Positions 3,987-45,592 of a stretch of 59,942 nt of DNA are shown piece by piece. The translations under genes were made by a program, and so were the position numbers. The stretch's first letter is position 1, and each line of letters starts with the position of its first letter. The notes beneath the pieces are model-generated. The model was not told the DNA's origin. It did not search any database and saw only the letters and a program-made list of their open reading frames with translations. Source of the stretch: an archaeon (GTDB lineage: Archaea; Nanobdellota; Nanobdellia; Woesearchaeales; ARS49); assembly GCA_020051845.1 (NCBI GenBank), contig JAGVQG010000056.1:1-59942 (forward strand), in the 5' to 3' direction.

Positions 3987-3987
3987 A

Positions 3988-4320: not shown

Positions 4321-4349
4321 ATAATTGATGATATGATATAAAAGAGTTT

Positions 4350-5522: not shown

Positions 5523-5900
5523 GATATCAGCATACCTTTCCTCCTTTATAAATGCTGGGTGGCTAATTGAATTAGTGCCTGGGCAAAAGCAATCAAAATA
5601 CTCAACCCAAACACATATTCCCGAAAAACAACCATCCCTCATGAGTTTATCGACGGGACCATATTCTCCAGCAACGAAATATTTATATACTTGAGTCACC
5701 ATACTAATATACAATATAGTATACCAGCATAGGCAGACAGATAGTGCCTAATGCTTCAGACATTTGACCTCCTGAGCTTGTCGGGAAAAACGACGCGGGA
5801 AAAAGAGGCCTGGTCATCGATTGATCGGGTAATTGGCAATAGACAACTACGCCCGGCAGCTCTCCTTTTCAAATAATTCTGATAAAATCACATAAAAGAA

Positions 5901-6068
5901 TCAGTATCTCTCTTTCTCAGGCAAAATTCCTATGCACTTCGTCTCCTTGAACCCGCATGCCATACAGACGAAATTCACGAACTTGGAATTGCCGCTGATG
6001 GAGCCGAAAGACTGCCGCATCTTGCCTTTGCATTTTGGGCAAGCACCGGATGATTCCTTCTTTTCCAT
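5901..6068 (-). CDS. small zinc-ribbon protein (55 aa)
   Basis: Translated by hand: MEKKESSGACPKCKGKMRQ...FVCMACGFKETKCIGILPEKERY, with CPxC...CxxC. It is below the ORF-track length cutoff. Confidence 0.5.
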   Translation of the reverse strand: MEKKESSGACPKCKGKMRQSFGSISGNSKFVNFVCMACGFKETKCIGILPEKERY

Positions 6069-6225
6069 GACGCTAAAATAATGGCCGTGGTATTTAATCC
6101 TTTGGAACGACCTATTGTGCTTTAATATTGAAACCGTGTCGAGTCATCATCGAAACAGGCATCCTCCTGATGTGCGGAATCTTTAAATATCGCTTTGACA
6201 TGGGGTTGGCCAAGGGGTGGTAGGA

Positions 6226-6345
6226 ATGGACGGACACGAACGCGCTGCGTTGATCGAAAGAATCACAAGATCATTGATTGATAAATCGCACGTGGAACCG
6301 ACGATCGCCGAGGAGATGGCTCGTCGCTGGGTCACGATGTCATAG
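6226..6345 (+). CDS. 39-aa hypothetical micro-protein upstream of ftsZ
   Basis: MDGHERAALIERITRSLIDKSHVEPTIAEEMARRWVTMS. GGGGTGGTAGGA precedes the ATG. A TATA-like CTTTAAATAT lies at 6181-6190. Confidence 0.3.
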   Translation: MDGHERAALIERITRSLIDKSHVEPTIAEEMARRWVTMS

Positions 6346-6430
6346 GCGAGGTGACACATGGCAAAGGATGAGGAATTCGACGAAGACTGGGATGAAGATA
6401 TAGAAGATATCTAAGGCCGTCTTCAAAAAA

Positions 6431-7477: not shown

Positions 7478-7971
7478 TAACTTTAGGACCACAGAGCGAT
7501 TTCCTGTTCCTCGCGACTCCGCTTGATAACAGGAAGCAGCGTCCGATGCGAGAGTTATATGAGGCGATCCACGCCAGCAGACTCAAAGTCATAGCCCTAG
7601 GCACGATCCACACCAACATAATCGCACCTAATGTCAAGGAGACCCTTGCATACAGCCTTTCCTGGTGGCTCTCTGAGCGAAGCGTACACCATTGCGTTTT
7701 CCAGACATCGAAATCCTACAAAGCGATCGTGGGCTTCGAAAGCAAAACGCCGTTGGAGGATCTGGCGAAGACATTGCCTGATCTGACCACTGAACTGGAA
7801 GGTAATGTCGCAAGACTTTATGGCTGTGGTAACATTCAATGGGATATGAAAGCAAGAAACACGCTCGACGTGCTGGGCCAGACCGAGAAAGTCGTCGAGT
7901 ACGGCATTCCCTATCTGAAGCGTCGTTCGAGGGATTTCATCGGGAAGTTCATCGCCGATTCCGAGGAATGA
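7474..7971 (+). CDS. hypothetical protein translationally coupled to ftsZ
   Basis: 165-aa ORF. Its ATG overlaps the ftsZ stop (ATGA). No motif recognised. Confidence 0.55.
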   Translation: MITLGPQSDFLFLATPLDNRKQRPMRELYEAIHASRLKVIALGTIHTNIIAPNVKETLAYSLSWWLSERSVHHCVFQTSKSYKAIVGFESKTPLEDLAKTLPDLTTELEGNVARLYGCGNIQWDMKARNTLDVLGQTEKVVEYGIPYLKRRSRDFIGKFIADSEE

Positions 7972-8697
7972 TCACTCTTTCGCCGTCTTCCAGAGCAGTT
8001 CAAAGAAGTTTTGATATCCGCGCGCCATCTCTTTGTTCCGAATGACTATCGCGATAGGTTTCTCGCTCCACAAAACCAAGGCGACGTTGTCGCCATAGAC
8101 GTTGATCGCCGCTGGCCCCATGAATTGCTCAGGCAGGAATCTCACCTGGGAAAGAGGTATCTTGCCAAGTGTCTTCTTTGCGCTTTCCTCGAATATTACT
8201 TTGACATTGACCTTGGCCTTCTTCCTGCGTTCGTCGAACCATTTGAAGTACCAGCGCATCGTCTCATAGGATTTCGCGCTGCTGCTCACGATGAGTATCT
8301 CTTTTCCCGTGCGCAATTGGTCCTCGAACGCGGTCTTGAGCCCCTGTTTTCCTTCGAAGAGCAATGTCTCCTGCTTGGCTTCAGTGAGATTCCAGCGGCC
8401 TTGCAGAGTCAACACCGCTTCCGATAGGCGTTTCTTCCTCTCATCGACCATCTCGAGCAGCCTGTCAGGCCTTACTGCCTCGAAGTTCTTGCGGTTGTTC
8501 TTGGTGATGTGGCCGACTAAACCCTTCGCGACAAGCCTTTCGGTCGCGTCATAAGCGAGACGGCGATGCACTCCTGCACGTCGAGAAAGCTCTCCGGCAG
8601 AGCACATTCCACCGTCGACAAGAGCCAGATACACCTTAATCTCGATGGGCGTGAGCCCTTCATCGCTAAGAACGGATTCCATTGTCATAGAACTCAA
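7972..8697 (-). CDS. TrmB-family transcriptional regulator
   Basis: The N-terminal wHTH (LTPIEIKVYLALVDGGMCSAGELSRRAGVHRRLAYDATERLVAKGLV) is typical of TrmB-like regulators. Confidence 0.75.
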   Translation of the reverse strand: MSSMTMESVLSDEGLTPIEIKVYLALVDGGMCSAGELSRRAGVHRRLAYDATERLVAKGLVGHITKNNRKNFEAVRPDRLLEMVDERKKRLSEAVLTLQGRWNLTEAKQETLLFEGKQGLKTAFEDQLRTGKEILIVSSSAKSYETMRWYFKWFDERRKKAKVNVKVIFEESAKKTLGKIPLSQVRFLPEQFMGPAAINVYGDNVALVLWSEKPIAIVIRNKEMARGYQNFFELLWKTAKE

Positions 8698-8927
8698 TAA
8701 TCAATCCAGATTCATAAGTTTTGTGGTGATGATGTCTATCACAATAAAACAGTAACGTTTTTTAGTGAGTATGTTCTTATGTGTTAAAATGAAAACACTA
8801 ACAACAAAAGAGGAATCCTGTGAAGATGTATTTGATATCCCCTATTCAATCGCAGGTAAATTCAAGGGTCTGAAGTGGAATAAATCAGAAGATAGAATGA
8901 GTTCAAGAGAATTTTGATTTTTAGCTT

Positions 8928-10229
8928 CTAAACTATCGTCCCGTATCCGATCAACCGCCATCTCTTTCCTACGTTGCGCGAGATCGTCACGCGCGATCCC
9001 TTTGTCGCGCACACCGGCCGCCTCAAAGGTATCTTGACAAGGCCTTTGCCCGTCTCGGACACCACTCCGACCGTCGCCGCGCTGTTCACGTTGAGCATGA
9101 GTATCTCTGTCTTGTGTATTGGATCGACGACCAGGCTGTCCTTTGCTCCGACGACTCTTTCAAGAAGGTGCGGCTCGAGCGTGAGCGTTGACAACACAGG
9201 TGGCGTCATTCCCGGCAATCCAATGACCGCTCCGACGAGCTTGTCGCTCTTGATGATGGACGGGTCGAGTCCGGTCATCAGGCCTATGCTTCCACCAGGC
9301 CTTGCCTGGTCGACGGATTTTCCACCGGCCATTATGCTCATGATCTTCGTCGTCAAAGGCTTCCATACTTTCTGGTTGCGTTCCTCGACCTCATAGCCAG
9401 GCATTATCTCGACTTCCATGCCGACCTTGAACACGCCTTGCTTGATCGCTCCACCAAGGACTCCGCCGACCATCTTCTTGGGCGTGGTGCCTGGCTTGTT
9501 GACATCGAAGCTGCGCGCCACGAACATTATCGGTTCCTTGGTGGCGTCGCGCTGCGGCGTCGGTATGAACTTCTGGAACGCTTCGATGAGCAGGTCTATG
9601 TTTAGGCTGTGTTTGGCGGCCACCGGGATGATCGGTGCATCGGCGAATGGCGATGCCTTGAGGAATTCACGTATCTGCGCCTGGTTCTTCTTCGCCTGGT
9701 CGACCGAGACAAGGTCGATCTTGTTCTGCACGACTATGACATTGGTGATGCCCATGATCGTCAACGCATGCATATGTTCGCGTGTCTGCGGCTGTGGACA
9801 TTCCTCATTGGCAGCCACAAGCAGCAAGGCTCCGTCCATTATGTTAGCACCCGATAGCATGGTCGCCATCAGGCTTTCATGGCCTGGCGCATCCACAAGG
9901 GACACCTTGCGTACGTGTTCTGTGGGCTTGCCTTCGATCTCTGGCTTGAGTGTCCATTGTTCAGGGCCTTCCTTGCCAGGTATCCTGTAGATATCTATAT
10001 CTGCGTAGCCGAGCTTTATCGTGATTCCACGCTTCAATGATTCAGAATGTGTGTCTGTCCACTTGCCGCTTAGTGCCTGCACAAGGGTGGTCTTACCATG
10101 GTCGACGTGGCCGACCATACCTATGCTGACCTCTGGCTGCGTGCTGGATGCATTGGCCTTGGCTTCTATCTTATCCTCGGTCGCCGCTGGTTGTTCAGTG
10201 TCCGCCTTCGCGGTCTTCTTCTTAGCCAT
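8928..10229 (-). CDS. eif2g: translation initiation factor aIF2 gamma subunit
   Basis: GHVDHGKTTL G1 motif, DAPGH and NKIDL. Domain II/III-like C-terminus. Confidence 0.95.
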   Translation of the reverse strand: MAKKKTAKADTEQPAATEDKIEAKANASSTQPEVSIGMVGHVDHGKTTLVQALSGKWTDTHSESLKRGITIKLGYADIDIYRIPGKEGPEQWTLKPEIEGKPTEHVRKVSLVDAPGHESLMATMLSGANIMDGALLLVAANEECPQPQTREHMHALTIMGITNVIVVQNKIDLVSVDQAKKNQAQIREFLKASPFADAPIIPVAAKHSLNIDLLIEAFQKFIPTPQRDATKEPIMFVARSFDVNKPGTTPKKMVGGVLGGAIKQGVFKVGMEVEIMPGYEVEERNQKVWKPLTTKIMSIMAGGKSVDQARPGGSIGLMTGLDPSIIKSDKLVGAVIGLPGMTPPVLSTLTLEPHLLERVVGAKDSLVVDPIHKTEILMLNVNSAATVGVVSETGKGLVKIPLRRPVCATKGSRVTISRNVGKRWRLIGYGTIV

Positions 10230-10508
10230 TCATCTCAAAGCCAGAACAGGTTATTTATAAAGCTTCGGTAATGACAGAACATGGACTGGTCGGTAATGCT
10301 TATGCCGGATTCTGCCGCACATCCTCGACCACTTCCTGGACGATGTGTACCGTCGGAAGCTGGACATCACGGACGCGCATATGAGAAAACGGTCCAATGG
10401 TCAATTAGCGGAGCGTTTCCGGCGATTCCGTACCACTTGCGGCGTTTCCGCATACGCTCCGTGTTGGCGACCACAACACATGAAAAGCAAGACCGCATCG
10501 ATCATATC

Positions 10509-10742
10509 ATGGCGAAGAACGAACAAGCGATAACCTACCTGATAATCAGCATCGTGCTTTTCACGCTGATGATCATCCACATCTTTCAGGCGTTCCCGCT
10601 GAGCACCGACAAGTTCGCGTTTTTCCTTGTGAGCCTTTTCACGACGGTGATGCTGATCCCCATGCTCAAATACCTGAAGTTCTTTGATATAGTGGAACTC
10701 AGGCGTTCTTACAAGACGTTGGAAAAAGAGAGGAGAACCTGA
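10509..10742 (+). CDS. small membrane protein (77 aa, about two TM segments)
   Basis: MAKNEQAITYLIISIVLFTLMIIHIF...LVSLFTTVMLIPML. The upstream part of the 153-aa ORF looks non-coding. Confidence 0.4.
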   Translation: MAKNEQAITYLIISIVLFTLMIIHIFQAFPLSTDKFAFFLVSLFTTVMLIPMLKYLKFFDIVELRRSYKTLEKERRT

Positions 10743-11085
10743 ACTGCCGTGGTTTTCCGGAATATCTCGGCATGTCGCAAAGATACGCGAGTTCTTCGCC
10801 TCCATCACGCCACAGAAGAAGGTGCACTTGTTTGTCGTGTACGACAACACCGTTGACAACCCATGGTTCTCCGTAATTTCGCCCTTCTCCCGGCCAGTTG
10901 TGGTGCAATAAATAGATGCGTCGCTCAAGGTCGTAATGATATCTCAATGCGCTCAGTTCCCGCACTGAATCGATCCGTTTCGAGCGGGTGCATTCAGTCA
11001 ACGCGGATAGCGCAAGCTTTTGTAGATATTCCAGGTCCAGTGAGCGATGACGCAGGTCGTATGGAAGGTCCCTTATGAAGTTCAT
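10699..11085 (-). CDS. hypothetical protein coupled to the phosphohexomutase gene
   Basis: 128 aa from ATG 11085, which overlaps the upstream stop (ATGA). No motif recognised. Confidence 0.45.
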   Translation of the reverse strand: MNFIRDLPYDLRHRSLDLEYLQKLALSALTECTRSKRIDSVRELSALRYHYDLERRIYLLHHNWPGEGRNYGEPWVVNGVVVHDKQVHLLLWRDGGEELAYLCDMPRYSGKPRQFRFSSLFPTSCKNA

Positions 11086-12401
11086 TCCTTGATCAGCCCG
11101 GTTATCTCTTTCAAGCGTCTCTCCAGTTCCTTCTTGTTCCTGGCTTCTACGTTGAGACGAAGCAAAGGTTCGGTGTTCGAGGGCCGCACATTGAACCACC
11201 AATCGGAGAACTCGACGCTGACGCCATCAAGTTCGGATATCTTTCCATCACGGTATTCGTTCTTGAGTTGCGCTATCTTCGCATCCTTGTCCTTGACCTC
11301 GAAGTTGATCTCGCCACTAGGATAATACTTCTTCAAAGGCTTGACCAATTCAGACAGCTTTCTGCCTGACGATGAGACCAGGCCCGCCATCAGCACAAGT
11401 GTGATGTCGCCGCTATCAGCGTAACTGTTGGACGCGTAATAGTAATGACCTGACAATTCACCCGCGAATATGGCGTTCGTCTGCCGCATCTTCTCCTTGA
11501 TGAAGCTGTGGCCGACGCGGGTCACGACGGCCTTGCCACCTAGCGCCGCGATCTGTTCCTTAACGGACCAGGATGAACGCAGGTCGTACAATATCGTCGA
11601 TTCGGGGTTCTTCTTCAGCAATTGCTCCGCGATGAGCGCGGTTATCAGATCAGCGGCTATCTGTTCGCCTTTCTCGTCTATGAAGAACACCCTATCGCAG
11701 TCAGCGTCGTAGGCGACGCCGAAATCCGCATTTGTGGAGAGCACTTTCTTCTTGAGGCTGTCAGTCGCCCCTTCGACCAATGGATTCGGCCCACGGCCGG
11801 GGAAGTTGCCGTCTGGTTCGAAATATAGCGGCACTATCTCTATGCCCGTGCTCTTCGCTATCTTTTCGATCGCGATGCTTGCGGCGCCGTTGCCAGCGTC
11901 AACGACGATCTTGATCTTGCCGATGCCGTGGGCGTATGCCGCGACATCTTCGACGAACTCATCCAATATGTCGACCTGGCGCACAGTGCCTTTCTTGGCC
12001 GATTGCTTGGGATTGCCAACCATCGACTTCTCGATGTCTTTGAGGCCGCTGTCTGATCCTATAGGTATGGCGCCTTTGCGGCACAACTTGAAGCCGTTGT
12101 ATTCCTTTGGCGTGTGGCTCGCCGTGATCATAGCAGCGTCTCCCTTGCGGCTGGCATAGTAGAGCATGTTGGTCGAGCAGACGCCGATGTCCTCGACATC
12201 ACAGCCTTGGTCGACCAGTCCTTGCACGAAGCGCGAATGCAATGCCGCGCTTGAGTTGCGCACGTCGCGTCCAACTATCAATTTCTTGGCCTTCAAGAAG
12301 ACCACGAGCGCTCTCGCAAGCGTGTAAGCGAAACCATCGTTCAATTCAGATGGATAGATGCCCCGTATATCGTATGCCTTGAATACTCCCAAAACATTCA
12401 C
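11082..12401 (-). CDS. glmM: phosphoglucosamine mutase / phosphomannomutase family (alpha-D-phosphohexomutase)
   Basis: Active-site loop TASHTPKEYNGFK and metal loop DADCDR. Confidence 0.88.
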   Translation of the reverse strand: MNVLGVFKAYDIRGIYPSELNDGFAYTLARALVVFLKAKKLIVGRDVRNSSAALHSRFVQGLVDQGCDVEDIGVCSTNMLYYASRKGDAAMITASHTPKEYNGFKLCRKGAIPIGSDSGLKDIEKSMVGNPKQSAKKGTVRQVDILDEFVEDVAAYAHGIGKIKIVVDAGNGAASIAIEKIAKSTGIEIVPLYFEPDGNFPGRGPNPLVEGATDSLKKKVLSTNADFGVAYDADCDRVFFIDEKGEQIAADLITALIAEQLLKKNPESTILYDLRSSWSVKEQIAALGGKAVVTRVGHSFIKEKMRQTNAIFAGELSGHYYYASNSYADSGDITLVLMAGLVSSSGRKLSELVKPLKKYYPSGEINFEVKDKDAKIAQLKNEYRDGKISELDGVSVEFSDWWFNVRPSNTEPLLRLNVEARNKKELERRLKEITGLIKE

Positions 12402-12502
12402 CTCTGAAGTGGCATCCTGCGAGCTTGATTAAAAACATTATGGTCCGGATGCCCTGCCATGCGATTGAGAACTTCGACTTGCCGCCGTGGCCTTTCCGAT
12501 TT

Positions 12503-12688
12503 TCACTTACGGAGTTTCGGCATCTCGAGGACCGGGTCTGGCAGGCCGTATTTTCGCGCCCGCGCTTGCTCGAGACTCACGAGTCGCCTGCAGTCGACGC
12601 ACCATTTGCGCATAGGACTGAGGCTTGACACTGCGCAGCCGCATCGCTGGCACAGCACCTGCATGATTTCATCCATGCTATTCTTCAT
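12503..12688 (-). CDS. small zinc-ribbon protein (61 aa)
   Basis: CQRCGC...CVDCRR provides two CxxC pairs. GAGGAAG lies upstream of the ATG. Confidence 0.45.
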   Translation of the reverse strand: MKNSMDEIMQVLCQRCGCAVSSLSPMRKWCVDCRRLVSLEQARARKYGLPDPVLEMPKLRK

Positions 12689-12805
12689 AACCCACCGTCT
12701 TCCTCACGTATTCCTAGAGGAGGTCTTCGGTTTATATTGATTTCTCTTGTAGCGACTTGAGAGTAGTCAAACTATTCTTATAAATGGAGTAAGGATAGTG
12801 CCGAT

Positions 12806-12970
12806 ATGCGAGACGCGCAGAAGAACACGGCCGAATCCTACGCTCGCGAGATGAAGAGACGCGATCAGCGCATAGAGGAACTCGAGGAGGAACTGCGGAT
12901 GATGCGCAAGTTGTTGCTCAAATCTGTGGGTGAGAAGCTCTCCATCACCGACAGGATGAAGAGACGCTAA
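12806..12970 (+). CDS. 54-aa coiled-coil micro-protein (hypothetical)
   Basis: Translated by hand: MRDAQKNTAESYAREMKRRDQRIEELEEELRMMRKLLLKSVGEKLSITDRMKRR. GGAGTAAGG lies upstream. Confidence 0.35.
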   Translation: MRDAQKNTAESYAREMKRRDQRIEELEEELRMMRKLLLKSVGEKLSITDRMKRR

Positions 12971-38200: not shown

Positions 38201-41200
38201 TCAACTATACGCATAGATGAAGCTCTCCGGATTCTCGTTCTGGTATGATCCTGCCGAGTCCGCACAGATGAATGCATAGCTCTTCTCGCCGTTGGTGTCG
38301 AGCTGCGTCTCACAATGGCTGTCTGTGCAGGTCATGCCCGAGGGTAGTTTGTCGAATGATTGTATGGCCGGTCCGTACTTGCAGATGTAATTTGAAGGCG
38401 TGTTCACGGTGAATTTCGTCGATGCCTTGGTCGCGGGATAGGTTATCGTCTGCGTCATCATGAACGGGCTTACCGTGAAATTGATATCCTCTCCCGGCGA
38501 CAACACGCCTCCTGTGGCTTCCGGCTGTCCTGTCGTGGTTATCTTGAGCAATCCGTGATAGAACGCGAAAGGCCTGTCGCGGCACTTGACATAGACAGTA
38601 TGTGGTCCGCTCACTCCTGTCTCCGTTTCGCACTGTCTTGTCCCGACTCCGCGCATGTCGCATTTCATCGCAGTCATCTCATCGAATGTCTTGTCGTTGT
38701 CCAGCGAGAAGGCGCATTCCGCGGGCTCGCTGAGCAATAGCTTCAACGAAGAAGGCATCGCAGCGGGTGGAGCGGGAGTGACGTTCAAGACACGCACGGG
38801 TATGTTGTCCTGTCGTATCGCTACTTCTATGACTATCTGTTTGGTCGTCGTGCCTTCCTCATCTTCGTCGCACGAGAGATAGAGGCGCAGTTCTGTCGGA
38901 ACCTTACGCAGTGCGTTGAATGTCAACAAAAGATCGACCTTGTTTCCAAGCGTGTTGAACTGCTTGTTCTCTTTGAGCGCGGAACTCAGCGGCTCTCCCC
39001 ACGCATCCTTTGCTTTCTGCAGGTTGACCTGTGCTCGAGGATCCGTTGTCGCGAAACTGAATACGCTATCGAACAGGCTCTTTGTCTCGAATGGATTCGC
39101 GAAGTACGATGCTGCCTTCGAACCCGTGGTCATTGAATTGAACTGACTGGTGTCAGGCACTTCGAAAAGGAGGTCCTGCGATTTCGCGGGTTCGCGCAAG
39201 TCGGGGTTGAACGCGTTGCTTCCTGGAGAGAATGATTCCATCATATAGTCGAAGAATATCTTCGCTCCACCAAGAGCGGACTCTGTTTCTGGATCGTCGG
39301 ATTCTAGCGAGCCTGTGAAACCAGGTATCATGCTCAGCATGCACGTCGCTTCCGAATCAGTCTTCACCGATATGTTGAGCATCTCCCAAGGATTGAGCGG
39401 TTCGACCACACGATATCCTGAGGATGTTGCCTGCACGTTCCTGCCTGGGAACTCGATGGTGATATCAAGTTGTGTGTCGGTGCCTTTCACCACGCATTTC
39501 GGGAAGCCATTGTCATTGGAGAAGACGCATTTGCGTCCTAGCGACTTACAGAGATATTCCGAACATCCGCCTAGCGCGTCTGCGCACATCTCACAACGTT
39601 GCTTCTTGAGCCGCACTGGTGCCTTGTATAACTTGCAATGCGTACTGTGGCGGATCCATAGCGGCACCATGTCCATCAAGACAGCGATAGGATCCTGCGA
39701 TAGCCACCAGTTGATGTATTCCCGTGTCCGATCCTTCATGTAATCAGGATCTCCCTGTGGATAGTTGAAATTGTCTGCCTTGACTCCCTGGAATGCAGGT
39801 ATGTTGAGAGGGACTTTCGGCGCCTTTATGATCTCGTCAAGAGTTGTGGTCATGTATGATTTGGATGGCTTGCCTGTACTGCTCTTGAATCGCTTGTTCG
39901 GTCCGAACTCAGCCATGTTGACCTTGTTTCCACAGTCGCCGAGCGAGTAGCACCATTGCGCCATGGCATTTGCGTGGGCCACTGGCGGCTTCCAGCTGAG
40001 TGCCTGCGAGAACACACCTATGTCCTCGTGCATCTGTTCGTTGCCGACCTGGCATACCAGCTTGCCTGAGGCGGTCCAGTGCTGCAAGCCAGGTCCTACT
40101 ATTGGATTGCATCGGTCGCTGTTGCGCCCAGCAACCTCTGTTGGTGGCGGTGGGACGAATCCTGGCCGCCAGAAGCAGTCGCGCACTGTCGTGTTCTCGC
40201 ACTGCCCAACACTTGCCTGGCTCCAGCAATCCTGCCAGCGGTTGTCGCGGCAACCGGCGACTTCACCATCTTCGACGCAGAACTCCTCCCTGTAGTCCCT
40301 GCATGGCTCCTCGATTATCTCGCCGTCGATGCATGAAAGTTTCACGAAACGGCTTCCCACAAGATCAAGCCCGTTCTTGCGATGGTAACTGTCGCCGCAC
40401 CATTGTTTTCCGTGCGGTAGTATCGTGCCTTCAAGATCGCAGCTCTTGCATGCTTTGCCGTTGCATTTCGTTTCATTGACGAAAGGCGGAACGCAGCGGC
40501 TGTCATTGGCCTCCACGACAATGCCTTTCTTCGAGGTGCATAATGATGCTGGCGCGTTGAAGTAGCAGTCGAAGCCATCATTGCAGTTCTGCAGGTATGT
40601 GACAGGCCTGCGCGGCTCGAGCGGCTTGTCAGCTGTCGACAACCCGCTCTGCGCAACGCGGAAAAAATATTGGCGTCCGACATTGTCCGTGGTGTTGAGC
40701 TCTATGACCGTGTTAGGATATGGCCTGTCGATGTTTATCTTTATGCCTGCGCCGTGCTGTTTCATCCAACTATCCTTGTCCATGTACCCGTTCTGGATCT
40801 CCTGGTTCAAGAGTAAAAGCGCAAGTGAGTGTAGCTTGCCTATCGGAGACTGTGTGCGCTGCGCAAGCTGGTCGAAGCTTATGGTGTCCTGGCCGCGCTT
40901 GAGTTTGATCGGTATCGTCAGTTCGCTCGTGACATCATCGAAGCCTATGATGCTGCTGATCGCGAGCGTTCCTCTGCTCACGACAGTGAATCCCTTCTTC
41001 TCAAGGGGCGCAAGATCGATGCAACCATCCACCAAAGGCGTGATGAGCGTGTCGAATTCCTCGGCGATGTCACGCTTTGTTCGCAGTAGGTTGATGCACC
41101 CTTTCCCATCGACTTCCTGGCAGTATACGCTGTAGGGTTGACCACGATGCACTATGAAAGGCTCCTTCAGCGTACCTCCTTTCTCCGATAGCTTGCGCAG

Positions 41201-41407
41201 GTAAGGTATACTTTGCGAACGGTAACATTCGGTGACTATTCCCTGGAGCTGCGTCGACGGGTCCTCGTTGCGCGCAGTGTCCTCGACAATGGTGTTGGTC
41301 TTCTCGCCACGACCCACCACATAGACAACGGTCCCTACTCCTATGATAAGTATGAGACCTATGATTATGAAAATGGCTATCTGACCTCTTTTGTTCCCCA
41401 TATCCAA
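38201..41407 (-). CDS. large (1068 aa) Cys-rich extracellular protein with a class III (pilin-like) signal-peptide-like N-terminus
   Basis: N-terminus MDMGNKRGQIAIFIIIGLILIIGVG. About 26 Cys counted by eye in the central third. No catalytic motif recognised. Confidence 0.75.
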   Translation of the reverse strand: MDMGNKRGQIAIFIIIGLILIIGVGTVVYVVGRGEKTNTIVEDTARNEDPSTQLQGIVTECYRSQSIPYLRKLSEKGGTLKEPFIVHRGQPYSVYCQEVDGKGCINLLRTKRDIAEEFDTLITPLVDGCIDLAPLEKKGFTVVSRGTLAISSIIGFDDVTSELTIPIKLKRGQDTISFDQLAQRTQSPIGKLHSLALLLLNQEIQNGYMDKDSWMKQHGAGIKINIDRPYPNTVIELNTTDNVGRQYFFRVAQSGLSTADKPLEPRRPVTYLQNCNDGFDCYFNAPASLCTSKKGIVVEANDSRCVPPFVNETKCNGKACKSCDLEGTILPHGKQWCGDSYHRKNGLDLVGSRFVKLSCIDGEIIEEPCRDYREEFCVEDGEVAGCRDNRWQDCWSQASVGQCENTTVRDCFWRPGFVPPPPTEVAGRNSDRCNPIVGPGLQHWTASGKLVCQVGNEQMHEDIGVFSQALSWKPPVAHANAMAQWCYSLGDCGNKVNMAEFGPNKRFKSSTGKPSKSYMTTTLDEIIKAPKVPLNIPAFQGVKADNFNYPQGDPDYMKDRTREYINWWLSQDPIAVLMDMVPLWIRHSTHCKLYKAPVRLKKQRCEMCADALGGCSEYLCKSLGRKCVFSNDNGFPKCVVKGTDTQLDITIEFPGRNVQATSSGYRVVEPLNPWEMLNISVKTDSEATCMLSMIPGFTGSLESDDPETESALGGAKIFFDYMMESFSPGSNAFNPDLREPAKSQDLLFEVPDTSQFNSMTTGSKAASYFANPFETKSLFDSVFSFATTDPRAQVNLQKAKDAWGEPLSSALKENKQFNTLGNKVDLLLTFNALRKVPTELRLYLSCDEDEEGTTTKQIVIEVAIRQDNIPVRVLNVTPAPPAAMPSSLKLLLSEPAECAFSLDNDKTFDEMTAMKCDMRGVGTRQCETETGVSGPHTVYVKCRDRPFAFYHGLLKITTTGQPEATGGVLSPGEDINFTVSPFMMTQTITYPATKASTKFTVNTPSNYICKYGPAIQSFDKLPSGMTCTDSHCETQLDTNGEKSYAFICADSAGSYQNENPESFIYAYS

Positions 41408-41555
41408 GGCTTTCGGGTGCCGGCTGCTTTATAAATGTATGGCATCGCGCCAGAACTCCTTGACGAGAACGACAACGCTATTTGTTGTCACTACGAAGAG
41501 GCAAAAAGAAGAAAGATTTATATAGTAATGTTGCGTATCATGACCTTGAGTGAAG

Positions 41556-42806
41556 ATGGCACAAACACCCGCGCCCTTGAAGAAAGAGCCATATTATACG
41601 ATTCTTGCGTTCGAGAAGCTCGAGCTACAAAAACCGCTCGAGATGATCACGAGCACGATATTATCTGAAAAAGCAGGCGCTCAATCATATGAAGTCTGGC
41701 GCCAGAACCCGCTCAGCATAATGCCAAACGTCCTGGCGTGGGCGTCGATGACCTGCTACGGTGGTTTTCGCAACAGGGTCAGCCCGAAGTTCGAGGAGCA
41801 CTTCGACCTTGACTTCTCATTCTATCCACGCACGCAAAAAAGGATGGAGAATGGCAGCATCCTAGAACAACACCTGTTCGAGAGATGCTCAAAGGATCCT
41901 GACGCTGCGCGAACAAAGGACATAGTGATACAGCTCCGTGAGCGCGACGACCACATGAAATATGATGCGACAAGATTCACGCACGACATCCAAGACCTTC
42001 TGCCCGACGCACTAAAAGATGTGAAACAGAATCTCGGCTTCGCGCCTTATGTTCCAGGAACTATCGATGCTTTCACGCACGCGTTCAGGAACGAGAATTT
42101 TGATGTGGCCACTGCCAAGACCTGTGAGAAAGGGTTGTTCCGACGTGGCATCGATATCGTGGCTGTCAACCTCCTCTACAATAGAGGTTTCATAGAAACA
42201 CTCTGCGACACTAGACGCGGAAACAAAGGCGAACTGACCTATCAAGGGATCAAGGACGCCAAGTGGGTGTTGTTCTTCCCAGAGGACATGTACGAACGCG
42301 ACCTGAAGACGATAGACGGCGTGAAAGGGGATTATGCGCAGCTAGACCCGATACAGAAGATGATCGCGATGAATGTCGCATTGCCAATCATTGCATTCAA
42401 GACGAAGACAGGCTTGTTCACGCCAGTAGGGGCACAAGACAAGAAAGGATCGAGGATCGTTCCCCGATCAAGCGAGACCCAAGTGCTTAGGAAGATATAC
42501 ACCCGCATACCTTCGGTGGCTTTCGACTCCGCGATTCTGATCGACAAGCACATTATTGAGAAGAACAGGACCCATCCTTGGACGATAAATGAATACGAAC
42601 GCCAGAAGACTGAGGTTGATCCTGAGGAGAAGATACCGACAGGACCTCAAGAAACAATTGAAGTCAAGCACGACAATCGTCCGACCGAATTGGAAAGCCC
42701 TCCTGTTGTGCTTCCTGTGAACCCACCCGCTCTTCCCAAACTGCCGAAGTTCTCCGTCAGAGGTCCAAGAAAGACGGCACATCTCCCGTTCGAGGATATC
42801 AAATGA
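41556..42806 (+). CDS. hypothetical protein (416 aa) with Pro-rich C-terminus
   Basis: ATG 41556 is about 32 nt downstream of TATA-like TTTATATAG. The stop overlaps the next gene (ATGA). Confidence 0.6.
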   Translation: MAQTPAPLKKEPYYTILAFEKLELQKPLEMITSTILSEKAGAQSYEVWRQNPLSIMPNVLAWASMTCYGGFRNRVSPKFEEHFDLDFSFYPRTQKRMENGSILEQHLFERCSKDPDAARTKDIVIQLRERDDHMKYDATRFTHDIQDLLPDALKDVKQNLGFAPYVPGTIDAFTHAFRNENFDVATAKTCEKGLFRRGIDIVAVNLLYNRGFIETLCDTRRGNKGELTYQGIKDAKWVLFFPEDMYERDLKTIDGVKGDYAQLDPIQKMIAMNVALPIIAFKTKTGLFTPVGAQDKKGSRIVPRSSETQVLRKIYTRIPSVAFDSAILIDKHIIEKNRTHPWTINEYERQKTEVDPEEKIPTGPQETIEVKHDNRPTELESPPVVLPVNPPALPKLPKFSVRGPRKTAHLPFEDIK

Positions 42807-43708
42807 ACCAAGCCACGATCTCATTGGGGAAGAAAGCCCTATTTTGCGTCAACGCGACGCTCCTCACTGCCGCAGGCTACCTCTGGTACAATCACGCCGA
42901 CGCGCACAAACCAATCAGGATCACTCCGCATATCGCACAAGAACATCAAGCACCCGATCCCAGGACCGACAACTTGCCCGCTGCGACGCAAATCACGACC
43001 GCGCCCGATACGCTTGAAGTCCTCGTGCAGAAACCCGCGACTGTCGATCCGCGTGTCACGACCCTCACGCTCAAAGGTTTCGACGAGTACAACGCACTCG
43101 TTCCGGCCATGCTCAAGGTCTCCGACGAACTTAAATCGAATAGGATCGATGTGCCATCCGAGATCATCGCGCTCACTGTGCTTACAGAGACTTCAGGAAA
43201 GACCGGTCGCGACGGAAAATACCGCGACCGCTACGAGCCGGGATTCCAGAGGAGATATGTCGATCCCCTGTTCGACAAGTGGGACAAGAAAGCAAATGGC
43301 TACGGACTCCACATGGTCCTTGAGAAGATATACAAGAGGATGCAGGAGCAAGGAAGCGAAATCAGCAAAGACGCGTTCAAGGCCATGCTCGCGTCGTCCC
43401 CAGGACCCGCGCAGGTGATTAGACTGACGGCATATGACGATGGTTTCCGAGGTTTGCCGAACGAGCTTGACGACAATGAAGTCAACCTCCGCTGCGCCGC
43501 AATGCACATCTGGAGACAAAGGCACCAGACATCCACGGTTGTCGACAATGATGAAGGACAGCATCGAGTCTACGACCCCCGACTAGTCCTCAGGGCATAC
43601 AACGCAGGCAATGTGGACGCCAAGCCGACAGAAGGCCACGTCGAGCGTGGCATGGATTACTGGACACAGTTGCAGAAGAACACCCTTGCGAATTCCCGTC
43701 GTAGATGA
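42803..43708 (+). CDS. membrane-anchored lysozyme-like / lytic-transglycosylase-like protein
   Basis: N-terminal TM (ALFCVNATLLTAAGYLWY). LTETSG (Glu-Ser-type motif), SSPGPAQV and VLRAYNAGN resemble SLT motifs I-III. RYEPGFQRRY resembles the muramidase FE.H.F element. Confidence 0.45.
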   Translation: MNQATISLGKKALFCVNATLLTAAGYLWYNHADAHKPIRITPHIAQEHQAPDPRTDNLPAATQITTAPDTLEVLVQKPATVDPRVTTLTLKGFDEYNALVPAMLKVSDELKSNRIDVPSEIIALTVLTETSGKTGRDGKYRDRYEPGFQRRYVDPLFDKWDKKANGYGLHMVLEKIYKRMQEQGSEISKDAFKAMLASSPGPAQVIRLTAYDDGFRGLPNELDDNEVNLRCAAMHIWRQRHQTSTVVDNDEGQHRVYDPRLVLRAYNAGNVDAKPTEGHVERGMDYWTQLQKNTLANSRRR

Positions 43709-43804
43709 CACCCGCAGCCAATCTAACCTTTTAATCATCACTACTAAGTGATTAAAACACCGAAATGTTTAAATAGTAGTTATACCACTACACAGTAGAT
43801 ACAA

Positions 43805-44335
43805 ATGGGGGTTATCGTGAGAACAACTCTGTTCATCATCATCGCCTTCGCTTTTGGCATCGCCATCGGCGGAGTACTCCACGGAATGACCGTGGTCGAT
43901 GTTGCTGCAGCACCTTCTCCACAGCAACCCGCAAGCGTATCCACACTCGCGTTCACGTCCACTACGGACATGGCCGCGCCCAGCGACCATATCCCTGAGA
44001 GCGCCATCAGCGTCCTCTCGGACAAGGTCGTCATAGACCTGCCCGGCGCTGTCTGGGCGAAATTCACGCCTTCGGGTTCGATGAAACCGGTGTTCGACAC
44101 CGGCGCGAACGCAATCGAGGTCGTGCCTTCGTCCCCTGGACAGATCAACGTCGGCGACATCGTGTCGTACCAGAGCGACTGGATGGACACGCCGGTCATC
44201 CACCGCGTGATTCAGACAGGCACCGACTCGGAAGGATGGTACGCCGTGATGAAGGGCGACAACAACAGCACGCAGGATCCTGGCAAGGTCAGGTTCCCGC
44301 AGGTGCGTCGCGTCGTCGTCGCGGTCATTTACTGA
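43805..44335 (+). CDS. signal peptidase I, archaeal/eukaryotic Sec11 type
   Basis: N-terminal TM, SGSMKP (catalytic Ser), HRV, and the GDNN motif. Confidence 0.85.
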   Translation: MGVIVRTTLFIIIAFAFGIAIGGVLHGMTVVDVAAAPSPQQPASVSTLAFTSTTDMAAPSDHIPESAISVLSDKVVIDLPGAVWAKFTPSGSMKPVFDTGANAIEVVPSSPGQINVGDIVSYQSDWMDTPVIHRVIQTGTDSEGWYAVMKGDNNSTQDPGKVRFPQVRRVVVAVIY

Positions 44336-44352
44336 AACTCACCACACACCTC

Positions 44353-44650
44353 ACAACAAGACGTTTTGCGTTTTGTTGTATCCCATACTGGATCGCAAGA
44401 TCAAGTATGGGCTTATGCTCACCAAACACCTCTTTTCCTGCGTCGGCAGCCCTCACGGGCTGTCGGCGTAGGTTTTGATCTTGTGAGGTTAACTCACCAA
44501 ACACAACGGAAGCAAAGCTTCCGTGTGCACGGAACCAACGGTTCCGTTGCACAACGAAATGCAAAGCATTTCGTGTGCCAGAAACGCTCCGCGTTTCTCG
44601 GCACCTCTTTTCCTGCGTCGGCAGCCCTCACGGGCTGTCGGCGTAGGTTT
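44353..44650 (+). repeat. array of eight stable hairpins including a 49-nt perfect direct repeat (44427-44475 and 44602-44650)
   Basis: Hairpins paired by hand at 44353-44379, 44382-44411 (GCAA loop), 44437-44472, 44506-44524, 44525-44552, 44554-44574, 44575-44604 and 44612-44647. Confidence 0.75.
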
Positions 44651-44710
44651 ATTTTCAAACCATTACGAACCCTAGAAACCTTCTTATAGCCGCCATCTAG
44701 AACCTGCCGC

Positions 44711-45592
44711 ATGGCTGAGATTGATGACTGGAAAGAGGCTGGCAGAATAGCTGCCCAGGCACTTGATTTCGGCAAGAACCTGATCAAGCCAGGTTCCAAG
44801 ATTCTTGATGTATGCGAGAAAGTCGATGCGAAGATCCGCGAACTCGGTGCGCAGCCCGCTTTCCCGACTCAGATCAGCTGCGACCACGTTGCGGCACATT
44901 CATGTCCTTTGGATGATGATGCGACAATATTTGACAAGCAAGTCGCTTCTTTGGATGTGGGTGTTCATGTTAATGGCGCGATAGGCGACACTGCTCTGAC
45001 TGTCGACTTGAGCGGTCAGCATGCTGATCTTGTGAAAGCTTCGCAAGAAGCTGTCGATGCCGCGCTGAAGATCGTCAAGATAGGAGTCACGCTCGGTGAG
45101 ATCGGAAAGACCATCCAGGAAGTCATCACAAGCCACGGTTTCGCTCCCATCAGGAATCTCAGCGGCCATGGCCTCGACCGTTTCAACATCCACACAATCC
45201 CCACTGTCCCTAACATTGATACCAATGATTCAACAGAGCTAGAGGACGGCATGTTCATCGCCATCGAGCCGTTCGCCTCCACAGGCAGCGGTCTTGTGCA
45301 GGAATCCGGCGAACCTACTCTTTTCTCATTCGCAGAGATAAAAGGAATACGTTCACAATACGCACGCGACGTGATGCGAGAGGTCGAACAATACACCACG
45401 CTTCCTTTCACGACGCGCTGGGTCAGCAGGTCCCTGGGTATCGGCAAGACCAAGTTCGGACTGAGGGAGCTGATGCAATCCGGCGTCCTAGAGAGCTACC
45501 CGCCGCTCATTGATTCAAGAAAAGGCATCACGAGCCAGGCCGAGCATTCTGTCTACGTCTGCGACAAGCCGATTGTACTCACTCGATTGTGA
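44711..45592 (+). CDS. map: methionine aminopeptidase, type 2
   Basis: MAEIDDWKEAGRIAAQAL..., AFPTQISCDHVAAH, with the characteristic type-2 insertion. Confidence 0.92.
   Translation: MAEIDDWKEAGRIAAQALDFGKNLIKPGSKILDVCEKVDAKIRELGAQPAFPTQISCDHVAAHSCPLDDDATIFDKQVASLDVGVHVNGAIGDTALTVDLSGQHADLVKASQEAVDAALKIVKIGVTLGEIGKTIQEVITSHGFAPIRNLSGHGLDRFNIHTIPTVPNIDTNDSTELEDGMFIAIEPFASTGSGLVQESGEPTLFSFAEIKGIRSQYARDVMREVEQYTTLPFTTRWVSRSLGIGKTKFGLRELMQSGVLESYPPLIDSRKGITSQAEHSVYVCDKPIVLTRL

What the first reader, a model, noticed from the sequence alone, without database searches (positions are those of the whole stretch)
41556..43708. Archaeal two-gene operon: unknown 416-aa protein coupled to a membrane-anchored lysozyme/lytic-transglycosylase-like protein
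The 301-aa product has one N-terminal TM segment. Its extracytoplasmic domain shows LTETSG (candidate catalytic Glu followed by Ser), SSPGPAQV and VLRAYNAGN, in the order and spacing of SLT-family motifs I-III. An RYEPGFQRRY element resembles muramidase families. Archaea have no murein, so a murein-cleaving enzyme implies action on a bacterial partner or prey, on pseudomurein, or on a new substrate. Its start overlaps (ATGA) the stop of a 416-aa ORF of no recognisable family with a Pro-rich tail, so the two products probably act together.
Basis: partly seen in the sequence, partly recalled or inferred. Interest (0 to 1): 0.7.

Follow-up and report, generated by a model that had tools for sequence, protein, structure and literature searches.

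The report
DPANN archaeal SLT-type cell-wall lysin operon
A small symbiont-type (DPANN, Woesearchaeota-like) archaeon carries a divergent, phage-derived bacterial-cell-wall-cutting enzyme displayed outside the cell and coupled to an unknown partner gene; this matches what has already been proposed for such archaea, so it is a solid but not a new kind of finding.

Summary
Two co-directional genes overlap by ATGA: orfA (41556-42806, 416 aa) and orfB (42803-43708, 301 aa). They sit on an archaeal contig of Woesearchaeota/Nanoarchaeia type.

orfB alone misses every Pfam/NCBIfam threshold, but it belongs to a small family (25 cluster representatives at E<=1e-10 among 1.84 billion). In that family 18 of 25 members hit Pfam SLT and three carry LysM. 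The family profile matches a bacterial/phage SLT subgroup at 99.8% hhalign probability.

The AlphaFold model (pLDDT 89.7) matches only peptidoglycan glycosidases. Glu129 is conserved in at least 90% of members. Glu145, GPxQ and YNxG are also conserved.

The layout is an N-terminal signal/anchor helix, a disordered stalk and an SLT domain. The domain carries a 56-79-residue insert containing RYEPGF. The same subtype, with a shorter insert, is common on phage contigs.

orfA is not an orphan. Homologues about 36% identical lie immediately upstream of the SLT gene in two other contigs. Its fold and function remain unknown.

GH23/SLT proteins in DPANN archaea are already described in the literature, and NCBI already annotates relatives as lytic transglycosylases. 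Verdict: new member of a known kind, with moderate interest.

The parts
41517..41524 (+). Archaeal TATA box TTTATATA preceded by a purine-rich BRE-like stretch. It lies about 26-32 nt upstream of GTG 41550 / ATG 41556, which implies a leaderless or near-leaderless orfA-orfB transcript.
   Evidence: Read directly from the sequence. Its role as a promoter is inferred, not tested.
41556..42806 (+). orfA: a 416-aa protein (alternative GTG start at 41550) with no signal peptide or TM segment, a conserved core at about residues 160-355 and a variable Pro-rich/basic tail. Family and fold are unknown.
   Evidence: ORF. No Pfam, NCBIfam, PHROG or PADLOC hit. Homologues directly upstream of the SLT gene in L006 (36% over 200 aa, E 1e-26) and L008 (37% over 149 aa, E 5e-26). 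Best 19-residue hydropathy only 1.27.
42792..42796 (+). GAGGA Shine-Dalgarno-like element inside the 3' end of orfA, 6 nt before the orfB ATG. Together with the ATGA overlap at 42803-42806 it suggests translational coupling.
   Evidence: Read directly from the sequence. Coupling is inferred.
42803..43708 (+). orfB: a 301-aa extracytoplasmic SLT/GH23-type glycosidase.
42803..42904 (+). orfB residues 1-34: a K10-K11 n-region, a hydrophobic helix and A32-D33-A34. This is either a signal anchor or a cleavable Sec signal peptide.
   Evidence: AF2 helix 3-34 with pLDDT 82-94. Hydropathy. N-terminal hydrophobic segments in most family members. The AxA motif was read by eye; cleavage was not tested.
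42905..43048 (+). orfB residues 35-82: a low-complexity Pro/Thr/Gln-rich disordered stalk.
   Evidence: pLDDT 49-78, with segments 44-50 and 54-59 below 50. Length and sequence vary across the family.
43049..43702 (+). orfB residues 83-300: the lysozyme-like (SLT) catalytic domain. It contains E129 (43187-43189), the R143-Y-E145-P-G-F insert motif (43229-43246), G201-P-A-Q204 (43403-43414) and Y266-N-A-G269 (43598-43609).
   Evidence: pLDDT above 95 for most of the domain. Foldseek hits are only peptidoglycan glycosidases. Motif alignment to MltC. hhalign 99.8% to SLT-positive phage/bacterial proteins. Conservation. Codons verified.
43729..43732 (+). T-run (ccTTTTaa) 21 nt after the orfB stop, a possible archaeal terminator. 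The next gene has its own TATA-like TTTAAATA at about 43768-43775.
   Evidence: Read directly from the sequence. Function is inferred.
38201..41407 (-). Divergent neighbour: a 1068-aa Cys-rich (40 Cys) protein with a pilin-like class III signal (MGNKRGQIAIFIIIGLILIIG, probable start ATG 41401). Its own palindromic TATA TTTATAAA lies at 41428-41435. It is a probable surface protein, linked to the SLT gene in L007 as well.
   Evidence: Homologue 44% identical over 373 aa, divergent from the SLT gene in L007. No Pfam, PHROG or PADLOC hit. Any functional link is inferred.

Best explanation
orfB is a divergent member of the SLT/GH23 lysozyme-like superfamily, carried by a Woesearchaeota/Nanoarchaeia-type DPANN archaeon and descended from a bacterial/phage lysin subtype. 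That subtype is marked by ES-G...R-Y-E-P-G-F..R-Y...S-Y-G-P-x-Q-I-M...Y-N-x-G. The protein is exported by an N-terminal signal or anchor helix. A disordered stalk of about 50 residues holds its catalytic domain beyond the archaeal membrane and S-layer. There it cleaves the MurNAc-GlcNAc glycan strands of bacterial peptidoglycan, with Glu129 as the general acid. Because the producer has no murein, the target is the wall of a bacterial host, prey or neighbour. A tether or short reach would make the action local and contact-dependent: opening the wall at an attachment site, or releasing muropeptides as food. Whether the product is 1,6-anhydro-MurNAc (lytic transglycosylase) or reducing MurNAc (muramidase) cannot be told from sequence. 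orfA is a fast-evolving cytoplasmic accessory protein that is co-transcribed and translationally coupled with orfB in one subclade only. It may act in export, folding or regulation, but its role is not established. Shown here: homology, fold, motif conservation, operon structure, synteny and phage/bacterial ancestry. Inferred: export topology, activity, substrate, biological role and the function of orfA.
For: Homology: the closest relative P0002 (49% identity) passes Pfam SLT (30.4 bits against a cutoff of 21.3). An exhaustive HMMER search finds a small family. 18 of 25 core members and 25 of 35 outer members hit PF01464, and several carry LysM or PG_binding_1. hhalign of the core against the SLT-positive phage/bacterial group gives 99.8%, E 4.5e-29, with all four motifs in register. 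The family profile aligns LTES to the IMQIESS catalytic motif of MltC, and GPAQIM...YNTG to GLMQIM...YNGG.

Fold: the AF2 model has pLDDT 89.7. The top PDB hits are Slt35, the AP3 endolysin, SltB2, Slt, MltE, Pae87, LysT84, Tse3 and the phi6 lysin. The top viral hits are LT_GEWL/SLT phage proteins at E 5e-5, prob 1.0.

Conservation: E129 in at least 90% of members; E145, G201 and Q204 invariant; Y266, N267 and G269 in at least 90%. The same residues are invariant in the phage/bacterial group.

Host and ancestry: named relatives are Woesearchaeota/Nanoarchaeota MAG proteins annotated as lytic transglycosylase. The window's M24 neighbour is closest to Woesearchaeota/Nanoarchaeia. 74 IMG/VR contigs carry the subtype as proteins of about 185 aa that fall in PHROGs for endolysin, lytic tail protein or transglycosylase. 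One outer member sits in a Mu-like prophage.

Operon. orfA-SLT adjacency recurs in L006 and L008, and probably in the P0004 contig.

Literature: GH23/murein transglycosylases in Woesearchaeota and Pacearchaeota have been proposed to bind or degrade bacterial walls (PMC8204110, PMC9723730). Archaeal peptidoglycan hydrolases have been shown to kill bacteria (PMC12352652).
Against: The window protein itself is below every curated threshold: Pfam 12.2 bits, NCBIfam none, PHROGs none. Foldseek E-values against PDB are weak (best 1.3e-2, TM about 0.33-0.5), partly because the query included the helix and the stalk. The spacing from motif I to motif II is 72 residues, against about 12 in MltC, so active-site geometry could differ. 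I could not inspect coordinates to see the cleft or the position of E145. This protein has no wall-binding domain. No peptidoglycan-salvage genes are nearby. The N-terminal hydrophobicity is modest (1.18). Woesearchaeota co-occur mainly with methanogens, not obviously with bacteria (PMC5994134). orfA is absent from L007 and from all more distant family members, so acting together with orfB is not a general property. No experiment exists for any member of this family.
Confidence: 0.68

Rival explanations
1. The enzyme is real and extracellular, but its substrate is not bacterial murein. It would instead act on another GlcNAc-containing polymer, such as chitin or chito-oligosaccharides (some GH23 members are chitinases), or the pseudomurein or other envelope glycans of an archaeal (methanogen) host.
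For: Woesearchaeota co-occur most strongly with Methanomicrobia and Methanobacteria, and the latter have pseudomurein (PMC5994134). [quoted passage not shown] The 56-79-residue insert is unique to the DPANN clade and could have re-shaped specificity. The orfA-linked subclade evolves fast.
Against: All sequence and structural neighbours are peptidoglycan lysins of bacteria and phages. The catalytic motif set is unchanged relative to phage lysins. From general knowledge, pseudomurein has beta-1,3 GlcNAc-talosaminuronic acid bonds and is lysozyme-resistant, and its known lytic enzymes are peptidases.
Confidence: 0.15
2. The domain is a degenerate or non-catalytic relic of a horizontally acquired phage lysin. 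It would now serve only as a glycan-binding adhesin, or have no function.
For: The window protein scores below Pfam thresholds. The window has E-T-S instead of the canonical E-S. It is only 32-37% identical to orthologues whose housekeeping neighbours are 59-79% identical.
Against: E129, E145, G201, Q204, Y266, N267 and G269 are retained across a family that is otherwise only about 18% identical per column, which indicates purifying selection on the active site. E-T is common in the family. The ORF is intact and the domain is modelled with pLDDT above 95.
Confidence: 0.08
3. The pair belongs to an integrated virus or mobile element, or to mis-assembled bacterial/phage DNA, and orfB is simply an endolysin unrelated to the biology of the archaeon.
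For: The nearest non-archaeal relatives are phage lysins. The block big1068-orfA-orfB is absent upstream of the conserved signal peptidase-M24 pair in more distant relatives.
Against: GC is uniform at 0.50-0.57 and there are no flanking repeats. There are no virus hallmark genes or PHROG hits nearby. The locus is embedded between archaeal housekeeping genes, and the same synteny occurs in independent metagenomes. The promoters are archaeal TATA boxes. The DPANN clade has its own architecture (anchor, stalk and a longer insert) and separates from the phage group in the tree.
Confidence: 0.04

Closest known systems
Family-1 lytic transglycosylases, Pfam SLT PF01464 / CAZy GH23 (e.g. E. coli Slt70, MltC, MltE)
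   Same: Same motif set in the same order: E-S/T, G-x-x-Q, A-Y-N-x-G. Single-Glu type active site. All-alpha lysozyme-like fold. Relatives pass the Pfam threshold.
   Different: The window protein alone is below threshold. A 72-residue insert with an invariant R-x-E-P-x-F element lies between motifs I and II, against about 12 residues in MltC. The host is an archaeon without murein. The reaction product is unknown.
Uncultivated-phage small SLT lysins with the RYEPGF element (74 IMG/VR contigs; a Mu-like prophage protein P0031; PHROGs for endolysin, lytic tail protein or transglycosylase)
   Same: Closest outgroup by profile (99.8% hhalign). Same invariant residues, including both glutamates. 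Single-domain enzymes.
   Different: The phage proteins are about 150-250 aa, lack the N-terminal anchor and stalk, and have a shorter insert (40-47 residues from ES to GxxQ against 56-79). No orfA-like neighbour was found within 4 kb in any of the 74 loci.
[quoted passage not shown] 2021, PMC8204110; GH23 of Woesearchaeota, Vigneron et al. 2022, PMC9723730)
   Same: Same superphylum, same catalytic domain class, same proposed role (binding or degrading bacterial walls), and likewise untested.
   Different: Those are described as large extracellular proteins of up to 3000 aa. This one is a 301-aa helix-stalk-domain protein in a two-gene operon. I did not test whether the domains are orthologous.
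DUF3380 / PF11860 N-acetylmuramidase endolysins (AP3gp15, PDB 5NM7; PMC5674055)
   Same: VES-KG-G type catalytic motif with a single Glu and no catalytic Asp. An enlarged lysozyme-like domain with extra helices. Foldseek hit with prob 0.98. Weak PF11860 cross-hits in 2 family members.
   Different: No significant sequence match for the window protein. The family scores much better on SLT. DUF3380 enzymes are proven hydrolytic muramidases, which shows that the fold does not predict the chemistry.
Experimentally shown archaeal peptidoglycan hydrolases (Halogranum salarium M23 peptidases, PMC12352652)
   Same: Archaeal, secreted, horizontally acquired from bacteria, patchily distributed, and directed against bacterial walls.
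   Different: Those are modular enzymes (catalytic plus wall-binding domains), diffusible, and peptidases rather than glycosidases. That survey excluded single-domain enzymes such as orfB.

Membership tests
SLT domain (Pfam PF01464, GH23, lysozyme-like clan) | The protein itself scores above the curated Pfam gathering threshold (21.3 bits) | tested here: not met
   Full length: no hit at E<=1. C-terminal 202 aa: 12.2 bits, E 0.14.
SLT domain (Pfam PF01464, GH23, lysozyme-like clan) | Homology to bona fide SLT proteins by transitive or profile-profile evidence | tested here: met
   P0002 (49% identity) scores 30.4 bits. 18/25 and 25/35 family members hit PF01464, best E 3.9e-17. hhalign 99.8%, E 4.5e-29.
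SLT domain (Pfam PF01464, GH23, lysozyme-like clan) | Catalytic Glu in motif I (E-S) at the end of a helix, conserved in homologues | tested here: met
   E129 in LTETSG. Conserved in at least 90% of 25 members and invariant in 12 phage/bacterial relatives. Aligned to MltC IMQIESS. The window has E-T-S, and E-T is frequent in the family.
SLT domain (Pfam PF01464, GH23, lysozyme-like clan) | Motif II (G-L-M-Q type) and motif III (A-Y-N-x-G) | tested here: met
   G201-P-A-Q204 and A265-Y-N-A-G269. G201 and Q204 invariant; Y266, N267 and G269 in at least 90%.
SLT domain (Pfam PF01464, GH23, lysozyme-like clan) | Lysozyme-like alpha-helical fold with a substrate cleft | tested here: inconclusive
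   A high-confidence all-alpha model whose Foldseek hits are only peptidoglycan glycosidases (prob 0.96-1.0). E-values and TM-scores are modest, and coordinates could not be inspected for the cleft.
SLT domain (Pfam PF01464, GH23, lysozyme-like clan) | Non-hydrolytic cleavage of MurNAc-GlcNAc giving 1,6-anhydro-MurNAc | not testable with these tools
   Needs muropeptide analysis. DUF3380 shows that a similar single-Glu fold can be hydrolytic (PMC5674055).
N-acetylmuramidase (Pfam PF11860, DUF3380) | Significant profile match to PF11860 | tested here: not met
   No hit for the window protein. Only 1/25 and 1/35 relatives give weak hits (E 0.0016 and 0.0036).
N-acetylmuramidase (Pfam PF11860, DUF3380) | Structural similarity to AP3gp15 (5NM7) | tested here: inconclusive
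   Foldseek rank 4: E 6e-2, prob 0.98, TM 0.36/0.41.
DPANN large extracellular murein-transglycosylase proteins (fam00969, PMC8204110) | Very large (up to about 3000 aa) extracellular multidomain protein carrying the SLT domain | tested here: not met
   orfB is 301 aa with a single domain.
DPANN large extracellular murein-transglycosylase proteins (fam00969, PMC8204110) | SLT-type domain encoded by Woesearchaeota or Pacearchaeota | tested here: met
   for taxonomy; for the domain.
Modular archaeal peptidoglycan hydrolases (PMC12352652) | Catalytic domain plus at least one cell-wall-binding domain | tested here: not met
   No binding domain in orfB. LysM is present in only 3 of 25 relatives.

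The most novel reading that the evidence does not exclude
The orfA-orfB pair is a previously unrecognised two-component, contact-dependent wall-breaching module of DPANN archaea. In this reading the expanded, DPANN-specific insert (with the invariant second Glu145) has retargeted a phage lysin fold to a non-canonical substrate, such as the pseudomurein or envelope glycan of an archaeal host. orfA would be a new-fold cytoplasmic controller or a co-delivered effector.
Probability: 0.1. Interest if true: 0.75.

Novelty: new member of a known kind. Interest (0 to 1): 0.36.

Why it matters
How DPANN archaea attach to and feed on partners is an open question. Genome surveys have repeatedly pointed to murein transglycosylases as a hint that some of them exploit bacteria, but none has been tested.

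This locus offers a compact, expressible 220-residue domain with clear catalytic candidates (E129, E145). Its defined architecture (helix, stalk, domain) suggests local, cell-bound action. It also shows that a whole subtype of SLT lysins is under-detected by standard profiles: the window protein is annotated as hypothetical, so archaeal wall-degrading capacity is probably under-counted. The subtype is marked by the RYEPGF insert, is frequent on uncultivated phage contigs and was found in none of the 50,697 phage records searched with three query proteins.

The fast-evolving partner orfA and the neighbouring Cys-rich pilin-signal protein are candidate host-interaction factors.

Tried and rejected
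1. Direct family assignment of orfA and orfB with Pfam, NCBIfam, PHROGs and PADLOC, and phmmer against PDB: no usable hit.

2. orfA as a degenerate DEAD-box/helicase-C domain. The orfA profile's only PDB matches were DDX6/Me31B motif V (GLFRRGIDIVAVNLLYN against TDLFTRGIDIQAVNVVIN), but at E 0.5-1.5. Pfam on segments gave nothing. hhalign against two genuine DEAD-box helicases gave probability 0.06% and did not pair the motif. Rejected as chance similarity.

3. AlphaFold of orfA from a single sequence: pLDDT 31.9, unusable.

4. Word-index searches for orfA, alone and as a profile: only the window's own protein came back.

5. Scans with orfB patterns in GTDB genomes and with orfA patterns in metagenomes: nothing confirmed.

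6. tblastn of orfA, orfB and two outer-ring proteins against 50,697 phage records: no match.

7. Mobile-element signature around the block: no flanking repeats and no GC shift.

8. uS10 ribosomal-protein hits of the family profile: judged a spurious local match to '...YE..KRYID'.

9. orfA relatives next to phage SLT genes: none in 74 loci.
Full report
OBSERVATION. orfA is 41556-42806 (416 aa; an in-frame GTG at 41550 would give 418 aa). orfB is 42803-43708 (301 aa). The orfB ATG overlaps the orfA TGA, giving ATGA at 42803-42806. The quoted peptide motifs are all present:
- LTETSG, with E129 at 43187-43189
- RYEPGF, with E145 at 43235-43237
- SSPGPAQV, with G201..Q204 at 43403-43414
- LRAYNAGN, with Y266..G269 at 43598-43609

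The contig is archaeal. It carries aCPSF1 (TIGR03675, 841 bits), an archaeal-type signal peptidase I, FtsZ, eIF2-gamma, several aminoacyl-tRNA synthetases and SufBD. The neighbouring methionine aminopeptidase is most similar (49-58%) to proteins of Woesearchaeota / Nanoarchaeia MAGs. The organism is therefore a DPANN archaeon of that group, without a close representative among GTDB species genomes.

OPERON ANATOMY (read from the sequence; function inferred). A TATA box TTTATATA lies at 41517-41524, preceded by a purine-rich stretch. It is about 26-32 nt upstream of the GTG/ATG, which suggests a leaderless or near-leaderless transcript. A second, palindromic TATA (TTTATAAA, 41428-41435) faces the divergent 1068-aa gene. 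A GAGGA element at 42792-42796 sits 6 nt before the orfB ATG, inside orfA. Together with the ATGA overlap it points to translational coupling. A T-run follows the orfB stop, and the next gene (signal peptidase) has its own TATA-like box. The unit is thus a cleanly delimited two-gene operon.

WHAT orfB IS. On its own the protein is invisible to curated libraries. Pfam, NCBIfam, PHROGs, PADLOC and PDB sequences give nothing. The C-terminal part gives only 12.2 bits on PF01464.

The word-index search of 5.8 billion proteins found one relative, P0002 (49% identity), which does pass the Pfam SLT threshold at 30.4 bits against 21.3. An exhaustive HMMER search of 1.84 billion cluster representatives, using the two-sequence profile, found a small family: 60 hits at E<=1e-3 and 25 at E<=1e-10.
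- Of 25 full-length core members, 18 hit SLT and 3 also carry LysM.
- Of 35 outer hits, 25 hit SLT (best E 3.9e-17), and some carry LysM or PG_binding_1.
- A profile-profile comparison of the core family with 12 outer SLT-positive proteins gives 99.8% probability, E 4.5e-29, with every motif in register.
- Against PDB sequences the family profile aligns in two pieces to MltC: LTES to IMQIESS (the catalytic-Glu motif), and GPAQIM...YNTG to GLMQIM...YNGG.

In the family alignment E129 is present in at least 90% of members. E145, G201 and Q204 are invariant. Y266, N267 and G269 are present in at least 90%. The equivalents of both glutamates are invariant in the outer group too.

STRUCTURE. With the 25-sequence alignment, AlphaFold gives mean pLDDT 89.7. 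The model has three parts:
- a helix at residues 3-34
- a disordered segment at residues 35-82 (pLDDT down to 49)
- an all-alpha domain at residues 83-300 (mostly above 95), with one small hairpin at 244-257

Foldseek against PDB returns, at the top, only peptidoglycan glycosidases: Slt35 (1LTM/1D0K/1QUS, prob 0.96-0.99), the AP3 phage endolysin 5NM7, SltB2, Slt, MltE, Pae87, LysT84, Tse3 and the phi6 lysin. Against predicted viral structures the best hits are phage LT_GEWL / SLT proteins (E 5e-5 and 2e-4, prob 1.0, target TM 0.61 and 0.53). E-values and TM-scores against PDB are modest. The query carried the helix and the stalk, and I could not inspect coordinates. I therefore rate the fold criterion as consistent but not fully settled.

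WHAT IS UNUSUAL ABOUT IT. The distance from motif I (ES) to motif II (GxxQ) is 72 residues in the window protein. It is 56-79 in the DPANN clade, 40-47 in the phage/bacterial outer group, and about 12 in MltC. The insert begins with an invariant R-x-E-P-x-F-x-x-R-Y element.

This layout recalls DUF3380/PF11860 muramidases. Two family members give weak PF11860 hits. The DUF3380 endolysin AP3gp15 (5NM7) is among the fold hits. That enzyme has a single catalytic Glu in a VES-KG-G motif and an LT-like fold, but it makes lysozyme-type products (PMC5674055). It also means that sequence cannot decide between lytic transglycosylase and hydrolytic muramidase chemistry.

ORIGIN. Named core members are MAG proteins of Nanoarchaeota and Candidatus Woesearchaeota. 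NCBI already annotates them as 'lytic transglycosylase / SLT domain-containing protein'.

The outer group is bacterial and phage:
- P0031 lies between GemA and Mor, upstream of Mu-type portal and Mu F genes.
- P0071 is a LysM-SLT protein in a bacterial chemotaxis/MreB context.
- 74 IMG/VR viral contigs, mostly about 40 kb, encode the subtype as single-domain proteins with a median of about 185 aa. These fall in PHROGs annotated as endolysin, lytic tail protein, internal virion protein with endolysin domain, or transglycosylase.

None of the three query proteins (orfB, P0031, P0036) matched any of the 50,697 GenBank phage records. A rough NJ tree without support values separates the DPANN clade from the phage/bacterial group. 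The most economical reading is an old transfer of a phage or bacterial lysin into DPANN archaea, followed by addition of an export helix and stalk and lengthening of the insert. Uniform GC, the absence of flanking repeats and archaeal promoters argue against a recent insertion or a provirus.

TOPOLOGY. Residues 1-34 form an n-region (K10, K11), a moderately hydrophobic helix (19-residue hydropathy 1.18) and then A32-D33-A34. Most family members have an equivalent and often more hydrophobic N-terminal segment. The AxA motif was read by eye and I could not run a signal-peptide predictor. Either way the catalytic domain is extracytoplasmic. The Pro/Thr/Gln-rich stalk of about 50 residues is variable and disordered. 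By inference, it lets the domain reach past the archaeal envelope.

orfA. It has no signal peptide or TM segment (best hydropathy 1.27) and no hit in any library. It is a real gene with real homologues, however. Translated searches and an HMM find it directly upstream of the SLT gene in L006 (36% over 200 aa, E 1e-26; 5-nt gap) and in L008 (37% over 149 aa, E 5e-26; 1-nt gap). The contig of P0004 has a 380-aa gene overlapping the SLT start by 4 nt, but no DNA was available to test homology.

All orfA-linked SLTs fall in one subclade of the tree. In L007, which belongs to the same subclade, orfA is absent. There the homologue of the 1068-aa gene (44% identity) runs divergently straight into the SLT gene. 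More distant Woesearchaeota SLT loci (L002-L005) and the 74 phage loci have no orfA. orfA is therefore a lineage-specific accessory, not a general partner.

Between the window and L006 the neighbouring housekeeping genes are 79% (M24) and 66% (signal peptidase) identical. orfA and orfB are only 36% and 32% identical. The module evolves much faster than its surroundings, as expected for host-interaction or conflict genes, though relaxed constraint would look the same.

A tempting similarity of orfA to DEAD-box motif V failed a profile-profile test and is rejected. The single-sequence structure prediction was useless, with pLDDT 32. I can only propose, with low confidence, a cytoplasmic role in producing, exporting or regulating the lysin.

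LOCUS VARIABILITY. The signal peptidase-M24 pair is conserved across many Woesearchaeota genomes, but only the window's closest relatives have the SLT module upstream. This patchiness matches what has been reported for archaeal peptidoglycan hydrolases in general (PMC12352652).

MECHANISM PROPOSED. The steps are inferred unless marked as shown.
1. The operon is transcribed from the TATA at 41517, and orfB translation is coupled to orfA.
2. orfB is inserted or exported through Sec by its N-terminal helix.
3. The stalk presents the SLT domain outside the cell.
4. Glu129 protonates the glycosidic oxygen between MurNAc and GlcNAc of a bacterial glycan strand. Homology and conservation of this residue are shown here; the chemistry is inferred from the SLT family.
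5. Local wall opening at a contact site, or release of muropeptides, benefits the archaeon.

Woesearchaeota and Pacearchaeota have been proposed to use murein transglycosylases in exactly this way (PMC8204110, PMC9723730). Secreted archaeal peptidoglycan hydrolases have been shown to kill bacteria (PMC12352652).

The main rival is a different substrate: chitin, or the envelope of an archaeal host. It draws some support from the co-occurrence of Woesearchaeota with methanogens, including pseudomurein-containing Methanobacteria (PMC5994134), and from the clade-specific insert.

NOVELTY AND VERDICT. The kind of thing, a GH23/SLT enzyme in DPANN archaea aimed at bacterial walls, is already known from genome surveys, and relatives are already annotated as such. 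New here are four points:
- This divergent copy, annotated as hypothetical, belongs to that family.
- The family is a distinct subtype bearing the RYEPGF insert, with phage lysins as nearest relatives.
- One subclade has acquired a tightly coupled, fast-evolving partner of unknown fold.
- The architecture is small and probably cell-tethered, unlike the giant proteins described before.

I classify it as a new member of a known kind, with interest about 0.36.

Noticed in passing
window 44400-44665 (intergenic, between signal peptidase 43805-44335 and M24 aminopeptidase 44711-45592): An array of six near-perfect hairpins. It includes a perfect 49-nt direct repeat (44427-44475 and 44602-44650), each copy with a 16-bp stem. 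The RNA fold is -140 kcal/mol against -75.5 for shuffles, z = -14. There is no Rfam family at the gathering threshold. The strand and function are unknown.
   Followed up: partly
window 38201-41407 (-), TATA at 41428-41435: A 1068-aa protein with 40 cysteines and an N-terminus (MGNKRGQIAIFIIIGLILIIG) that looks like an archaeal class III (pilin-type) signal peptide. It has no Pfam, PHROG or PADLOC hit. A homologue 44% identical is likewise divergent from the SLT gene in L007. It may be a surface or adhesion partner of the lysin.
   Followed up: partly
L004 / L005 (Woesearchaeota contigs JAWAEN010000004.1, JAWAGA010000006.1), 1-12822: In another Woesearchaeota lineage the family's SLT gene is flanked by giant beta-helix/NosD proteins (1082, at least 1609 and at least 1645 aa). 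Two unknown co-directional genes (295 and 268 aa) follow it, and they are unrelated to orfA. The recurring link between SLT genes and very large surface proteins may be meaningful.
   Followed up: no
L095-L168 (IMG/VR viral contigs): The RYEPGF-insert SLT subtype is frequent on uncultivated phage contigs (74 loci). Yet orfB, P0031 and P0036 matched none of the 50,697 GenBank phage records. It appears to be an environmentally common lysin subtype that has not been characterised.
   Followed up: partly
window 41556-43708 against L006 1-1640: The rates of divergence within one syntenic block differ strongly: M24 79% and signal peptidase 66% identity, against orfA 36% and orfB 32%. This suggests diversifying selection or relaxed constraint on the lysin module.
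   Followed up: partly
L001 3-623: The reading frame of P0002, the closest relative of orfB, is open to the start of its 782-bp contig (stop-to-stop segment 3-620). The 184-aa protein is therefore probably N-terminally truncated, and its apparent lack of an anchor is not evidence of a soluble form.
   Followed up: partly
window 42147-42212 (orfA residues about 198-219): orfA contains GLFRRGIDIVAVNLLYNRGF, which resembles DEAD-box helicase motif V plus 'VINYD.P'. Profile-profile testing gave no support, so it is treated as chance similarity.
   Followed up: yes
L014, L015, L017, L018 and others: Many GTDB MAG records titled 'uncultured Methanosarcinales archaeon' interleave with Woesearchaeota/Nanoarchaeia records as the best matches to the window's M24 and share the signal peptidase-M24 synteny. 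Their titles may be taxonomically mislabelled.
   Followed up: no
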